30,829 nucleotides of DNA from a virus. Taxonomy: Duplodnaviria > Caudoviricetes. Location of the stretch: positions 1-30,829 of IMG/VR virus record IMGVR_UViG_3300020181_000026. One strand, given 5' to 3'. Each line of letters begins with the position of its first letter. The first letter of the stretch is position 1. The translations under genes were made by a program, and so were the position numbers. Shown piece by piece: positions 3,517-8,359 of this stretch. The notes below the pieces were generated by a model, which was not told the DNA's origin, searched no databases, and worked only from the letters and a program-made list of their open reading frames with translations.

Positions 3517-3728
3517 AGAAAGCCGTAGTCATCCTGTTCAAACCGAGCGGTAAGTACTACACGACCGAGGAGTGGACAGTCCCGGACAACTGCCTGGCAC
3601 CGGTCGACATGCTTCACTCCCCCGACTTCCGCCGGATCTCCGGAGGTCCGGTTCTCATCCCCGAACAGGCTCCGTGGGGGTATCCGCACCTGTTCCCGAA
3701 CATCCTCCTCAAGTGGAACGCAGCATGA
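3510..3728 (+). CDS. Hypothetical protein (72 aa)
   Basis: RBS in the second repeat copy; LFKPSGKYYT...GYPHL; ATGA overlap with the exonuclease. Confidence 0.75.
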   Translation: MTQKAVVILFKPSGKYYTTEEWTVPDNCLAPVDMLHSPDFRRISGGPVLIPEQAPWGYPHLFPNILLKWNAA

Positions 3729-4816
3729 CCAACAGCGACCCGTTCGAGTCAGCCGTCGGCAAGCCCGTGACGGGCAAGCTGGACGAGGAAGGCATCGAGC
3801 GCGACGGGTGGGGCCGGTACCTCATCCCGCATCCGAAGACGGGGAAGAAGACGGCGTGGACCAGGGTGACGACGTTCGCCAAGTCCGCATCTGACACGTA
3901 CGCCCTGGGCCAGTGGGGCAAACGTATGGCAGTCAAGGGCTTGTCCCAGCGGCAGGACCTTATTCTCGCCGCCGCGGCGTGTGATCCGGAGCGGGACAAG
4001 GATCGGTTGAACAGCATCGCCGAAGAAGCGTCGAACGCCGCAGCCGCACGGGCGGGTAGCAACCTCGGTACCGCGCTGCATTCCTTCTCCGAAGCCGTTG
4101 ACCGCGGCGAGACCCCGTACATCCCCCCACCGTGGGACGCGGCGATGGACGCCTACCGCAAGGCCCTGGCCGACGCGGGACTCAAGCCCCGCGCGGAGTG
4201 GATGGAACAGATCATTGTCAACCTGATGTACGGGGTTGCCGGAAAGTACGACCGAATCTTTGAGGTCACCAAGCCCATATCCATGAAACTCGGGGGTATG
4301 CAATGCCGCCTCTCTCCTGGCCATTTGGTCATCGGGGACCTCAAGACGGGTAAGGATCTCCAATACGGCTGGGGCGAGATTGCCGTGCAGGAGTACCTGT
4401 ACGCCTCCGCCGCAACGGTGTGGGACAGGAGCGCGCGCAAGCATCTGCCCATGCCGGAGGTCCGCCGGGACGTTGCCGTGGTCGTGCACCTTCCTGCCAA
4501 CGATCAGGTATCCGGCGGCAAGGCAACGATCCACTTCGTCGACCTGGCGATCGGTGCTGATGGCGCCAATATCGCTGCTGATGTGCGGGAGTGGCGCAAG
4601 ATGCGCGGCATCGCCACACCTCTGTCGTCGGCCACGGTTGGTGAGGTTGACCCCACCCCGCCGTGGTCGACACCGGTGACGACGTGGGCTGAACAGATCT
4701 CCGCGTGCACCACTGAGGCTGAGGTGCGCAACGTTGCTCAACAGTGCTTTGCCGCTGGTGAGTGGACTCCTGAGCTAAAAGACCTAGGACTCAGGAAACT
4801 TGCTGAGTTTTCCTAG
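3725..4816 (+). CDS. PD-(D/E)XK family (RecE/Cas4-like) exonuclease
   Basis: RDGWGRY...TRVTT, GTALH, AGKYDRIF, IGDLKTGK and IAVQEYLYA motifs; start ATG 3725 (MTNSDPF). Confidence 0.85.
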   Translation: MTNSDPFESAVGKPVTGKLDEEGIERDGWGRYLIPHPKTGKKTAWTRVTTFAKSASDTYALGQWGKRMAVKGLSQRQDLILAAAACDPERDKDRLNSIAEEASNAAAARAGSNLGTALHSFSEAVDRGETPYIPPPWDAAMDAYRKALADAGLKPRAEWMEQIIVNLMYGVAGKYDRIFEVTKPISMKLGGMQCRLSPGHLVIGDLKTGKDLQYGWGEIAVQEYLYASAATVWDRSARKHLPMPEVRRDVAVVVHLPANDQVSGGKATIHFVDLAIGADGANIAADVREWRKMRGIATPLSSATVGEVDPTPPWSTPVTTWAEQISACTTEAEVRNVAQQCFAAGEWTPELKDLGLRKLAEFS

Positions 4817-4827
4817 AAGTTCGGCAC

Positions 4828-4855
4828 TTGCGCACAGAGTTCAGTCGTGTATTCT
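4828..4855 (+). promoter_or_regulatory. Putative housekeeping-sigma promoter
   Basis: TTGCGC-N16-TATTCT immediately after the exonuclease stop, in an AT-richer intergenic stretch. Confidence 0.5.
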
Positions 4856-4859
4856 GATT

Positions 4860-5137
4860 TCACCACCAAGCAAGACGGAAACCACCAAGTTTCGTCAAGT
4901 TCCTTGAGAATTTCACAGGGCATCACTGGTTCCGGGTTCCCCTGTCACATGTCGTGTCGTTCGGGTGGGCCGTCGAGCGACATGGAGAGTGCCCGGGACA
5001 ACCGGGATGGGTTCCGGTGCTAGCTCCCTTTGGTGGAGGTTGAGCGGCATCGGGCCCATCCCAACAACAGACTTTCGGCTACTGCCGAGAGGAACAGAAG
5101 AGAACACGAACACGAACATGAACAGGAAGAGGTAAGG
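4860..5137 (+). ncRNA. Structured 5' leader or ncRNA upstream of the putative SSB gene
   Basis: Stems ACAGGG/CCCTGT (4915-4945), CATGTCG/CGACATG (4948-4984), long hairpin 5004-5062 and TCGGC/GCCGA (5075-5088), then five GAACA units (5092-5125). Confidence 0.5.
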
Positions 5138-5563
5138 ATGTCCAACGACCCGTTCGCCCGTAGCTCCGGCGGAAGCCAACTTCGCGGCTACGCCGGACAA
5201 ACCGCGCTGATAACTCCACTGGAGTTTGCCCCGGGTGCGATCACTAGCCCCCGTGGCCCGGTTGATGGGGTGCGAGCCAACGTTGTGTTCTTCGACATGG
5301 AAAGTCCAAACCCCGTAGAGAACGCGACGGTGGTTGACGGAATGCTCATTCTGAACGGGCCCGTAGTCAGCGAGCTTAACTTGATCCTTGCCCAAAAGGG
5401 CAAGCCCGGTGCCAAGACCATGCAGTTGGGCAAGGTCAAGGAGAAGCCCAACACCAAGGGTGGCGACAAGCCGATTGTCGTTCTGGACGGGCCTGACGAT
5501 AAGGACGTGGAAGTCGCACGCGCGTATCTCGCCAGCATCAAACCCGAAGACCCGTTCGCCTGA
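5138..5563 (+). CDS. Putative single-stranded DNA-binding protein (141 aa)
   Basis: GAGGTAAGG RBS; beta-rich sequence; follows the exonuclease; ends in EDPFA, resembling the acidic-PF tails of SSBs. Function is inferred. Confidence 0.5.
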   Translation: MSNDPFARSSGGSQLRGYAGQTALITPLEFAPGAITSPRGPVDGVRANVVFFDMESPNPVENATVVDGMLILNGPVVSELNLILAQKGKPGAKTMQLGKVKEKPNTKGGDKPIVVLDGPDDKDVEVARAYLASIKPEDPFA

Positions 5564-5588: not shown

Positions 5589-5745
5589 TCCCGGCCGAAT
5601 GATCCTTCGGCCTGCGGACGGGATTGGCCCACCCGTGGGAGAAACGGGCCACTAGGAGGAGGACGGAGCCTGTCGGCTTCGAAATGGATCTGCGGTAGCG
5701 CCGTACGCATCACCACTACCGTAGATAAAACGGCAGGCTCCGCCC
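5589..5745 (+). ncRNA. Structured intergenic RNA of unknown family
   Basis: GGCCGAA/TTCGGCC (5593-5612), TGGCCC/GGGCCA (5625-5651), and a 12-bp stem 5664-5675/5731-5742 enclosing an 11-bp stem 5688-5698/5716-5726, each long stem with one G-U pair on the + strand. Confidence 0.55.
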
Positions 5746-5791
5746 AACCGTCATGATCATAGGTAACGTCACGCCACACTGAGGAGTACCC

Positions 5792-6097
5792 ATGCTGACA
5801 AGGGCGTCCCTTCAAGGACAGCTTGACACCCTGGACAAGCGCATCGAGCGGCGCACTGCGCGGCTTGAGAAGAACGAGGCGCGGCTCCGGGAGATCCGGG
5901 AGAAGCAGGCGCAGCGCCTGAACACTCTCGCCGAGTTGATCCGCACGGAACAGGCTGATCTGGAGAAGGACATCCGCAGCCGCGACTGGCTGCGCAGCTC
6001 GCCGGTTGCAGACGAGCAGAACGACGACAGTGACACCAGTGCTGACGGTTTCGCCGAGGCTAAGCAGGACGCGCCGGGGTGGCAACCCCCGCAGTAA
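5792..6097 (+). CDS. Coiled-coil protein with acidic tail (101 aa)
   Basis: GAGGAG RBS; long heptad repeat followed by a D/E-rich C-terminus. Confidence 0.8.
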   Translation: MLTRASLQGQLDTLDKRIERRTARLEKNEARLREIREKQAQRLNTLAELIRTEQADLEKDIRSRDWLRSSPVADEQNDDSDTSADGFAEAKQDAPGWQPPQ

Positions 6098-6121
6098 GTG
6101 AGGCAGTCCTGTAGAAAGGCC

Positions 6122-6182
6122 CGTGGGGACGGGAAAAGTCCTCCCCGGTTCCTACCGATGGGAACCGGGGAGGCGCCCCACG
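6122..6182 (+). ncRNA. Nested hairpin abutting the tRNA-like RNA (possible terminator or processed RNA)
   Basis: Perfect 13-bp stem CCTCCCCGGTTCC/GGAACCGGGGAGG (6140-6173) inside a 7-bp stem CGTGGGG/CCCCACG (6122-6128/6176-6182). Confidence 0.55.
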
Positions 6183-6271
6183 AGGGGGTAGCTCAACGGC
6201 AGAGCATGTGTCCGGCCCCTGTCCGCTGCTCATTCGGACACGAGGTGCAGGTTCGACTCCTGCCCCCCTCA
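6182..6271 (+). tRNA. tRNA-like RNA with non-canonical, enlarged anticodon arm (no assignable anticodon)
   Basis: Acceptor GAGGGGG/CCCCCTC with discriminator A; U8A9; D-arm GCTC-AACGGCA-GAGC; variable loop AGGT; T-arm GCAGG-TTCGACT-CCTGC. The anticodon arm is a 9-bp stem with an 18-nt loop. No encoded CCA (reads CCG). Confidence 0.8.
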
Positions 6272-6308
6272 CCGCTCATTCACCACCGACCACCAGAAAG
6301 GCATAGTC

Positions 6309-6701
6309 ATGGACAACGTTGTATTCGGTTTGGGGTTCGCGGCGGAACAAACGCTCAACCTCTTGCGTGACAAGCTCTGGAACGTCATCCCTGTCCTGCT
6401 GGTGCTGGCTATCGTGGCCAGTGTGACCACCGGTAGCACCGCTTTCCTCGTCATCGCCACGGCAACAGCCGTCATCTGGGGACTACTCAGCCGGAGCAAG
6501 GCCACCCATGCGGCCAGGACGGCAGAGTTCACCCGACGTCGCGTGGAGGCCATGCGCCAGGAACGCGAACGCCAAGACGCCATCCTGCGAGAAGCAGCCG
6601 AGAAGGCCATCGCGGACGGGGCGCTCACCCGGCAGGACTTCCTGACACTGCGCGACAAGATGCAGTTCCAGAGCTTCAATACGGTGTGGGGCACGCGGTG
6701 A
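6309..6701 (+). CDS. Membrane protein (2 predicted TM helices plus charged helical tail)
   Basis: GAAAGG RBS; hydrophobic VIPVLLVLAIVASV and FLVIATATAVIWGLL segments. Confidence 0.8.
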   Translation: MDNVVFGLGFAAEQTLNLLRDKLWNVIPVLLVLAIVASVTTGSTAFLVIATATAVIWGLLSRSKATHAARTAEFTRRRVEAMRQERERQDAILREAAEKAIADGALTRQDFLTLRDKMQFQSFNTVWGTR

Positions 6702-7096
6702 TACACCCGGACACCCTGCCCCTGCTCCACCCCGGTGACTGGACGGTCATCCATCAGGACGAGGCACAGCAATGGATAGCCTCTGACGAGGCCGAAGAGG
6801 TCCGCCTGTACTTGGACAACGCATCAATCTGGCTGGGCGACGGGCGACGGATTGCTAACCTCGTCATCCCGTTCCATGAGGCCAAATTCGCAGGATCTCT
6901 AGATATCACTCATCAAGGGCAGGGCCTTTGTTTCACCTACCTCGGTGACTACGTCCCCCTCCCTGTTGCGCTGTACATCCTTGAGAAAGCGGGATGGAAT
7001 GTGGTCAGGGACGGGAACTCGCTACAGATCACCGAGAAAATGACTACCGGAATCCCCGTCGTCTATCAGTTCAACGACGCTAACCTGATCAAATGA
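6698..7096 (+). CDS. Hypothetical protein, paralog A
   Basis: GTGA overlap; MIHPDTLPLLHPGDWTVIHQDE...VALYILEKAGW. Confidence 0.8.
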   Translation: MIHPDTLPLLHPGDWTVIHQDEAQQWIASDEAEEVRLYLDNASIWLGDGRRIANLVIPFHEAKFAGSLDITHQGQGLCFTYLGDYVPLPVALYILEKAGWNVVRDGNSLQITEKMTTGIPVVYQFNDANLIK

Positions 7097-7109: not shown

Positions 7110-7427
7110 GTGATCGACCCGGACACCCTGCCCTCGCTCCATCCCGGCGACTGGACGGTCATCCACCAGGACGAAGGGCAACAGTGGATAGTTTCCGATG
7201 AAGCCGAAGAGATCCATCTGTACCGGAGTGATGAATCGGAAGACTGGCGACGGATCCCCAAGCTTGTCATTCCGTTCCATGGAGCCACATTCTCGGGGTC
7301 CATGGAAATGACCGAAGACGGACGGGGCACGTGCTTCACCTGTATCGGCTACCCCGTCCCCATCCCCGTCGCGCTGTACATCCTCGAGAAGTGGGGATGG
7401 AAGATAACCGAACAGAGGCACCCGTAA
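7110..7427 (+). CDS. Hypothetical protein, paralog B
   Basis: AGGGG RBS; MIDPDTLPSLHPGDWTVIHQDE...VALYILEKWGW, clearly homologous to 6698-7096. Confidence 0.8.
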   Translation: MIDPDTLPSLHPGDWTVIHQDEGQQWIVSDEAEEIHLYRSDESEDWRRIPKLVIPFHGATFSGSMEMTEDGRGTCFTCIGYPVPIPVALYILEKWGWKITEQRHP

Positions 7428-8321: not shown

Positions 8322-8359
8322 GAAATGCCCCGCATCCCGTGGAAGGTGCGGGGCATTTC
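8322..8359. terminator. Bidirectional terminator between the convergent genome arms
   Basis: GAAATGCCCCGCA...TGCGGGGCATTTC, a 13-bp perfect inverted repeat between the stops at 8306 (+) and 8400 (-). Confidence 0.8.

What the first reader, a model, noticed from the sequence alone, without database searches (positions are those of the whole stretch)
6182..6271. tRNA shell with intact elbow but replaced anticodon arm
Seen: perfect 7-bp acceptor, 4-bp D and 5-bp T stems, with U8, A14, G18G19, A21, a Levitt-type A15-U48 pair and TTCGA all retained. The anticodon arm is TGTGTCCGG/TCGGACACG (9 bp) with an 18-nt loop, 19 nt longer than canonical, and has no U33 or purine 37 in register. TGTCCG occurs twice (6209, 6220), allowing a second pairing register with a 9-nt loop containing CAT. 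There is no G3-U70 pair, so it is not a tmRNA-type acceptor. Inference: preserved tRNA shape without decoding suggests a decoy for tRNA-targeting defence nucleases or toxins, a processing signal, or a scaffold presenting a guide-like loop.
Basis: partly seen in the sequence, partly recalled or inferred. Interest (0 to 1): 0.8.

Follow-up and report, generated by a model that had tools for sequence, protein, structure and literature searches.

The report
Non-decoding tRNA mimic in actinophage operon
A soil phage carries a fully paired tRNA-shaped element that lacks the normal codon-reading loop, and distant relatives keep such elements in the same gene region while lengthening, shortening or losing that arm, so it likely works as a "cut here" mark for the host's tRNA-trimming enzymes in the phage's early RNA rather than as a tRNA.

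Summary
In detail: 6182-6271 is a tRNA fold (Rfam tRNA, 55 bits) with a 36-nt stalk in place of the anticodon arm, and no single excision gives a canonical arm. It lies in a spacer of the early region of an actinophage-type siphovirus, downstream of an exonuclease and a putative ssDNA-binding gene. Loci fetched by that exonuclease often hold tRNA-shaped elements on the same strand (36 sense, 0 antisense hits in 74 loci). Their anticodon arms are long, short or absent and some lack the D arm. The acceptor/T helix and C74 persist, with fully variable acceptor sequences. That is what RNase P and 3'-maturation read, so a cis processing signal (t-element) is most likely (0.45); a trans decoy for toxins attacking tRNA ends is the main rival (0.25). 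This copy's loop is unique, has no detectable target, and the closest syntenic relative has only a plain hairpin here. No expression data exist. The cultured phage phiSAJS1 has an unannotated example, so the idea is testable. The scan reported similar phage tRNA shells before on other DNA; T4 RNA C/D are the old precedent.

The parts
6182..6271 (+). tRNA-shaped element without a canonical anticodon arm (whole)
   Evidence: Rfam RF00005 55.1 bits, E 1.9e-9; cloverleaf fold; parsed
6182..6188 (+). acceptor stem 5' strand (G+1); predicted RNase P cut between 6181 and 6182
   Evidence: pairs 7 of 7 with 6264-6270; the cut site is inferred
6189..6205 (+). U8/A9 and D arm with A14, A15, G18G19, A21
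   Evidence: sequence
6207..6242 (+). 36-nt stalk at the anticodon position: 9-bp stem, 18-nt loop, internal repeat TGTCCG at 6209 and 6220
   Evidence: no single excision gives U33 plus purine 37
6247..6263 (+). T arm, 5 bp, with TTCGA loop
   Evidence: sequence; pair probability 0.98-0.99
6264..6274 (+). acceptor 3' strand, discriminator A73 and CCG trailer (C74 present, CCA not encoded)
   Evidence: same end type as host CCA-less tRNA genes
6098..6181 (+). strongly folded spacer ending at the base just before the element, with a 13-bp perfect inverted repeat at 6140-6173
   Evidence: z -4.6; repeat I20
5792..6097 (+). upstream 101-aa ORF of unknown function; homolog at the same place in L121
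   Evidence: 38% identity to the L121 ORF; no Pfam or PHROG family
6309..6701 (+). downstream 130-aa ORF with a hydrophobic stretch; starts 38 nt after the discriminator, behind an AGAAAGG motif
   Evidence: 34% identity to the L121 ORF; only a weak holin hit, E 1e-3
5138..5563 (+). putative ssDNA-binding protein (phrog_870, function unknown)
   Evidence: model pLDDT 91.5; no significant structural match, best weak hit PRD1 P12 SSB at E 0.078
3572..4816 (+). exonuclease (Cas4-like) used as the marker gene to fetch relatives
   Evidence: phrog_466 E 1.5e-76; tblastn hits annotated as Cas4-family exonuclease

Best explanation
The element is a tRNA-shaped stretch without a decoding loop that likely acts as a cis processing signal: it is predicted to be cut at its 5' end by host RNase P and matured at its 3' end like a host CCA-less tRNA, which would split the phage's early transcript between the upstream genes and the downstream ORF. 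Shown: the fold, its place in a same-strand spacer, and, across relatives, retention of the acceptor/T helix and C74 while the anticodon arm and sometimes the D arm change or vanish. Inferred: transcription through the spacer; cleavage at 6181/6182, which would leave the upstream RNA ending in the folded region 6098-6181; 3' trimming and CCA addition, or retention of the shell as a protective 5' structure on the downstream mRNA; descent from an ordinary phage tRNA gene whose arm grew by a short duplication once decoding was no longer selected. The stalk sequence of this copy is probably tolerated filler.
For: (1) A scan for acceptor+T helices that ignores the D arm and the trailer gave 36 hits on the exonuclease strand and 0 on the other strand in 74 loci; 34 of 36 have C74 (the count includes two duplicated records and at least one likely chance hit). 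The covariance model gave 41 hits at E<=1 in 75 sources, all on the sense strand. (2) The core shrinks to what processing enzymes read: elements without D and anticodon arms (L296:3809, L300 twice), tetraloop arms (L247, L296, L301, L302, L124), long stalks (window, Streptomyces clade, L272/L274/L289, phiSAJS1), and L257 and L264, which keep the acceptor/T helix with a mutated T loop. (3) Acceptor sequences are all different (32 of 32 after collapsing two clades) yet paired: 95.6% of cells paired, 129 two-sided changes against 34.5 in shuffles (alignment fitted to the model, so inflated). No synthetase identity is therefore held in common. (4) C74 is kept (32 of 32) as in host Streptomyces CCA-less tRNA genes (28 of 28); C74 pairs with RNase P RNA (PMC1874595, passages). 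(5) Many elements end 26-150 nt before a start codon, on either side of the SSB-like gene. (6) Precedents: plant mitochondrial t-elements direct RNase P/Z cuts at mRNA ends (PMC1920247, abstract and section 35); M. smegmatis YrlA, with a 7-bp acceptor-like stem, is cut and gains CCA in vivo (PMC4201824, passages).
Against: No RNA data of any kind for this element. The closest syntenic relative (L121; exonuclease 56%, same gene order) has no shell here, only a plain hairpin, and most lineages lack one: 10 of 43 informative exonuclease clusters at 70% identity have a hit of 25 bits or more, 7 of 39 without the four clusters that seeded the search, one of them a canonical tRNA. Tandem groups of 2-3 elements with no ORF between them (L272, L296, L302) look more like an RNA gene cluster than like punctuation between genes. 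A strong hairpin after the SSB-like gene is not specific to shell-bearing loci (6 of 7 against 14 of 31, Fisher p 0.09). The features kept are also those needed to mature a free RNA that acts in trans, so the sequence evidence does not separate cis from trans. A second long-stalk shell on the L310 contig encodes CCA (L350).
Confidence: 0.45

Rival explanations
1. Trans-acting decoy: the shell is released as a stable, CCA-ended, non-decoding RNA that soaks up host defence enzymes acting on the tRNA acceptor end or elbow, without disturbing translation.
For: Tandem arrays of 2-5 elements (L272, L296, L301, L302); early region; host-like 3' ends; one CCA-encoding copy; patchy distribution, as counter-defence genes often have (general knowledge). 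Toxins that modify tRNA 3' ends (toxSAS/CapRel, MenT) are recalled, not tested here.
Against: The anticodon arm, target of anticodon nucleases, is the least conserved part; acceptor sequences share nothing; some copies have lost the D arm or the T-loop sequence and so the elbow. No paper on such decoy RNAs came up.
Confidence: 0.25
2. Scaffolded regulatory RNA: the tRNA body is a stable carrier and the stalk loop pairs with an mRNA or binds a protein, like P1/P7 C4 antisense RNA or the C-rich loops of actinobacterial 6C RNA.
For: In the Streptomyces clade a long stalk with a C-rich tip is kept across about a dozen elements; this loop also begins with four C; an 11-of-13 complement lies at the start of ORF 8139 (repeat I5).
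Against: The best loop-target duplex in the window (-28 kcal/mol) is no better than those of 30 shuffled loops (-24.8 to -32.5). Unpaired CCC is not enriched over shuffles (7 observed against 6.5 expected in 12 exonuclease-linked stalks; 12 against 10.8 in 81 others). No element found shares this stalk. Only 30.8 kb of a genome of at least 43.5 kb and no host genome could be searched.
Confidence: 0.13
3. Decaying tRNA gene: an ordinary phage tRNA that took a short duplication in its anticodon arm and is now a functionless relic.
For: A canonical tRNA-Ile(UAU) and a near-canonical Glu-like tRNA occur at the same kind of locus (L288, L248); the internal repeat looks like a duplication; the nearest relative lacks the element; no second copy of this element was found.
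Against: All 16 acceptor, D and T pairs are intact, while the arm stays non-canonical even with the 11-nt duplicate removed; non-decoding shells recur in several separate exonuclease lineages (the long-stalk label needs 5 changes on the quick tree, at least 3 by well-supported branches) and are conserved within clades.
Confidence: 0.12
4. Intron-containing tRNA that is spliced to a working tRNA.
For: The insert lies in the anticodon arm.
Against: No contiguous excision leaves a 17-nt arm with U33 and purine 37; the insert is far too short for a group I intron; bacteria lack the archaeal/eukaryotic tRNA splicing endonuclease (established knowledge).
Confidence: 0.02

Closest known systems
Phage T4 RNA C and RNA D (species 1 and 2; NC_000866.4 rnaC, rnaD)
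   Same: Phage-encoded RNAs annotated as small and stable; rnaC ends in a tRNA T arm with the middle replaced by other helices.
   Different: They lie in the T4 tRNA cluster, not in an mRNA spacer; 119-139 nt; no sequence relation to this element (the model hits only the rnaC T arm, 17.6 bits); rnaC shows no GCTC/GAGC-type D arm.
Plant mitochondrial t-elements (PMC1920247; abstract and section 35 read)
   Same: Non-decoding tRNA-like folds carrying the GGTTCRANYCC motif next to reading frames; cis signals for RNase P/Z.
   Different: Organellar, with mapped transcript ends; here a phage would use host enzymes, and no ends are mapped.
Bacterial Y RNA YrlA (PMC4201824; passages read)
   Same: tRNA-like D, T and acceptor domain without decoding, in actinobacteria and mycobacteriophages; the M. 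smegmatis RNA is cut by RNase P and gains CCA.
   Different: YrlA goes with a Ro60 gene and has a different arrangement of arms; no YrlA hit and no TROVE hit among 35 window ORFs.
P1/P7 C4 antisense RNA (named as an RNase P substrate in PMC11143913; passages read)
   Same: Phage RNA processed by host RNase P.
   Different: C4 has known antisense targets (recalled) and is not a tRNA homolog; no Rfam hit and no target found here.
tRNA gene remnants at integration sites
   Same: tRNA bodies with an altered anticodon arm; a host example sits beside an intact tRNA-Cys copy (L352).
   Different: Here both halves are intact and complementary, the element lies inside a phage early region, and no integrase or second copy lies next to it in the window.

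Membership tests
Canonical tRNA (Rfam RF00005) | 7-bp acceptor, D arm and T arm with conserved tertiary bases | tested here: met
Canonical tRNA (Rfam RF00005) | 5-bp anticodon stem with 7-nt loop, U33 and purine 37 | tested here: not met
   36-nt arm; neither register is canonical
Intron-containing tRNA | removal of one block restores a canonical anticodon arm | tested here: not met
   all single excisions to 16-18 nt tried; none of 17 nt has U33 and purine 37
tmRNA | G3-U70 acceptor and an mRNA-like domain | tested here: not met
   pair 3-70 is G-C; ARAGORN finds no tmRNA
YrlA / Y RNA | Rfam match and a neighbouring Ro60 (TROVE) gene | tested here: not met
   no hit at E<=1; no TROVE in 35 window ORFs; about 12 kb or more of the genome not held
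C4-type antisense RNA | loop complementary to a phage target | tested here: inconclusive
   no target above shuffles in 30.8 kb; rest of the genome and host not available
T4 RNA C/D-type tRNA-like RNA | tRNA T arm and ends kept, decoding arm replaced | tested here: met
   architecture only; no homology shown
T4 RNA C/D-type tRNA-like RNA | accumulates as a stable RNA in infected cells | not testable with these tools
   no RNA run listed for this stretch
t-element | T-arm motif in a tRNA-like fold in a spacer next to reading frames on the same strand | tested here: met
t-element | element ends coincide with mapped mRNA ends made by RNase P/Z | not testable with these tools
   needs transcript end mapping

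The most novel reading that the evidence does not exclude
Actinophages have repeatedly turned tRNA genes into non-decoding modules, down to bare acceptor/T minihelices, and place them around the exonuclease and ssDNA-binding genes to make host RNase P cut the early transcript; the freed, CCA-ended shells then double as decoys for defence toxins that attack tRNA 3' ends. This would be mitochondrion-style tRNA punctuation in a bacterial virus, coupled to RNA-based counter-defence.
Probability: 0.2. Interest if true: 0.8.

Novelty: new variant of a known kind. Interest (0 to 1): 0.52.

Why it matters
Non-decoding tRNA-like RNAs of phages have been known from T4 for decades with no function assigned in the record read here. 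This locus family gives a natural series (long stalk, tetraloop, no D arm, mutated T loop, plain hairpin, true tRNA) at one genomic position, which shows what is kept, and it includes a cultured phage with a harmless laboratory host (phiSAJS1 on Streptomyces avermitilis), so the cis-versus-trans question can be tested directly. It also warns that annotation tools miscall such elements as working tRNAs (tRNA-Pro here) or miss them.

Tried and rejected
Direct DNA search of the element against 50,697 phage records gave only short tRNA-arm matches. Single-protein or narrow searches for close relatives found only L121, L124 and the window's own record. Sequencing runs: no RNA holder listed; two further DNA runs gave only short pieces and none covers the element; neither is evidence on expression. 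Antisense target: not above shuffles. Promoter scan: 0 sites; a TTGCGC-16-TATTCT motif at 4828-4855 is by eye only. C-rich-loop idea (after 6C RNA, PMC6486639, seen in a search listing only): no enrichment over shuffles. The idea that C74 blocks RNase Z and so keeps the shell on the mRNA was dropped as specific evidence, because host CCA-less tRNA genes also have C74 in 28 of 28. The upstream hairpin as a shell-specific feature was not supported by its control. Relaxed ARAGORN with introns gave mostly noise and was not used for counts. RNAalifold on the Streptomyces stalks was uninformative because the alignment was out of register. Possible leucylation (A73, U8-A14, A15-U48 are present) stays open: S. 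coelicolor LeuRS does not use A73 and depends on variable-loop length (PMC6614811, passages). The ssDNA-binding label has no significant structural match; a wider structure search was not obtained. Ro60 was found in 1 of 4 genomes behind Streptomyces-clade loci, on a different contig from the shell. The careful tree did not finish; the quick tree was used, with three distant rows left out.

Full report
Observation. Rfam's tRNA model scores 6182-6271 at 55.1 bits, E 1.9e-9, the only significant RNA family hit in the window. The predicted fold is the cloverleaf with a 9-bp stalk. The second register is the minor state (pair probability 0.23 against 0.62) and is not a canonical Met arm. No contiguous excision leaves a 17-nt arm with U33 and purine 37, so splicing to a working tRNA is excluded. 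ARAGORN's 'tRNA-Pro(cgg)' is a forced call.

Setting. The window is part of a siphovirus of actinobacterial type: tail, capsid and portal genes on the minus strand, major capsid 68% identical to Streptomyces phage Rowa and about 60% to Gordonia phages. A protein record points to a contig of 43,459 bases, so about 12 kb or more is not held. The plus strand carries a helicase, an exonuclease (3572-4816), a putative ssDNA-binding protein (5138-5563; confident model, only weak matches to ssDNA-binding proteins), a 101-aa ORF, the element, a 130-aa hydrophobic ORF and small ORFs up to a hairpin at 8322-8359. The spacers here fold strongly (three of the four window stretches folded have z below -4). 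The spacer 6098-6181 closes at the base just before the element, and the next start codon follows 38 nt after the discriminator.

Closest relatives. L121 has the same gene order (exonuclease 56%, SSB-like 52%) but no tRNA-like element: ARAGORN finds none, the model finds none in the locus and at best 17.7 bits elsewhere in its 35-kb contig. At the same place it has a 44-nt plain hairpin whose base reads CAC-GAGGG...CCCTC as in the window; the two spacers otherwise do not align, so homology of the two hairpins is not shown. L124, the next relative, has a shell with a short arm between its exonuclease and SSB-like genes. This copy's own stalk was found nowhere else.

The wider family. Two pattern scans of IMG/VR for tRNA bodies with an over-long middle returned 120 and 119 loci (the first stopped at 10 of 64 parts, the second at 58 of 64). 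They held intron-type Tyr tRNAs, Ile tRNAs with a second hairpin, and many unrelated long-stalk shells. Two of these loci, picked only by RNA pattern, encode a relative of the window's exonuclease within 1.4 kb upstream (L038, L155). An alignment of five exonucleases then fetched 64 viral and 9 genome loci. Four of the five seeds carry a shell, so the sample leans towards their clades. In these loci plus L124 a scan for acceptor+T helices, blind to the D arm and the trailer, gave 36 hits on the exonuclease strand and 0 on the other. A covariance model built from 24 of the elements gave 41 hits at E<=1 in 75 sources, all on the sense strand; hits not in its training set include L253, L259, L288, L124, L317, L318 and L350. 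Rfam's gathering threshold confirmed 8 elements as tRNA-like in 17 loci given. After clustering exonucleases at 70% identity, 10 of 43 clusters with enough downstream DNA have a hit of 25 bits or more, 7 of 39 without the seed clusters; at 95%, 23 of 62. So the element is common but not universal.

What is kept. By inspection of the 44 elements listed, one has a canonical anticodon arm (L288, Ile UAU) and one a near-canonical one (L248). The others have long stalks (window; a clade of 93-98-kb Streptomyces elements, one deposited as linear plasmid pS1D4-14.2; L272/L274/L289; phiSAJS1), 4- to 6-nt loops, or no D or anticodon arm at all (L296:3809, L300). In L257 and L264 even the T-loop sequence has changed while the acceptor/T helix remains. 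Acceptor sequences differ in all 32 elements left after collapsing two clades, none of the 44 encodes CCA, and all 32 have C74 (the model includes these columns, but the blind scan gives 34 of 36). Pairing is kept by two-sided changes (129 cells against 34.5 shuffled, on an alignment fitted to the model). The control matters: 28 of 28 distinct CCA-less host tRNA genes, from 27 loci fetched out of the 73 matches in one Streptomyces genome, also have C74. The shells therefore end like host tRNA precursors, which argues for processing by the host machinery but gives no special role to C74. On a quick tree of 70 rows the long-stalk label needs 5 changes, so long stalks probably arose or were lost several times.

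Mechanism. The part that persists (a 12-bp acceptor/T helix, the T loop, purine 73 and C74) is what RNase P and the 3'-maturing enzymes recognise (established knowledge; the C74 contact is in PMC1874595, passages read). The parts that synthetases, ribosomes and anticodon nucleases need are not kept. In an actinobacterium, a tRNA-like domain with a 7-bp acceptor stem is cut and gains CCA in vivo (YrlA; PMC4201824, passages read). I infer that this element is cut at 6181/6182 and matured at its 3' end. Its position in mRNA spacers, often shortly before a start codon and on either side of the SSB-like gene, makes a cis role like that of plant mitochondrial t-elements (PMC1920247, abstract and section 35 read) the best single reading, at 0.45. 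Against it: nothing is shown at the RNA level; tandem arrays and one CCA-encoding copy fit a released RNA acting in trans; and the hairpin upstream is as much a general feature of these loci as of shell-bearing ones. The decoy reading (0.25) must aim at the acceptor end or elbow, not the anticodon. The guide-loop reading (0.13) failed two tests but cannot be closed without the rest of the genome and the host. A neutral relic (0.12) is possible for this single copy.

Comparison with what is known. It works like a t-element and is built like T4 RNA C, but membership of either rests on architecture only. It is not a canonical tRNA, an intron-containing tRNA, a tmRNA or a YrlA by the tests listed. 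Seven literature searches listed no paper on such elements in actinophages; the library holds open-access papers and preprints only, I read listings rather than full texts for these searches, and I opened no supplements. Earlier notes of this scan describe non-decoding tRNA shells in other phages and gave me the T4 and t-element leads; none matched this sequence, this genome or the exonuclease link.

Verdict. A real, non-decoding tRNA mimic; a new variant of a known but little understood kind. The single copy is modest: its loop is unique and its nearest relative does without it. The graded series around one phage gene module, with a cultured example, is what gives it value. Interest 0.52.

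Noticed in passing
window 5655-5755 and L121:3075-3180: A second structured RNA in the spacer after the SSB-like gene: long closing stem of different sequence in the two phages (z -4.2 and -4.0) with a shared 12-nt AGATAAAACGGC motif; no Rfam hit. A similar GTAAAACG motif precedes the shell in the Streptomyces clade.
   Followed up: partly
L318:6778-6901 (Streptomyces phage phiSAJS1, KT989433.2): Unannotated tRNA shell with a 73-nt stalk region after an SSB-like frame that the record does not annotate on that strand.
   Followed up: partly
L249-L263, L269, L308-L311, L317 (about 260 nt between exonuclease stop and shell): Conserved promoter-like motif and a conserved structured leader of about 230 nt ahead of the shell in 93-98-kb Streptomyces phage or plasmid elements; no Rfam family apart from the shell.
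   Followed up: partly
L007, L009-L012, L026, L029, L046, L125-L128 and many more: Viral tRNAs with a 7-nt UAU loop plus a second hairpin in the variable arm whose loop reads like a GAU anticodon: two Ile-type loops in one tRNA.
   Followed up: no
L245:2189, L246:1442, L265:1964: A conserved acceptor+T-arm element with an unusual middle, 1.8-2.6 kb upstream of the exonuclease match in one clade.
   Followed up: no
L350:436-533; L351:421-525; L352:304-401: Second long-stalk shell with encoded CCA on the L310 contig; two tRNA-like genes with inserts in the anticodon arm elsewhere in the same Streptomyces assembly, one next to an intact Cys-type copy.
   Followed up: partly
window 6686-7096 and 7110-7427: Tandem gene duplication, 73-82% DNA identity at about 410-nt spacing.
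   Followed up: no
window 6228-6235 and 6274-6281; 5032-5047: GCTCATTC occurs both in the loop and in the 3' trailer, and the trailer is 81% complementary to 5032-5047 in the upstream leader; may be chance.
   Followed up: no
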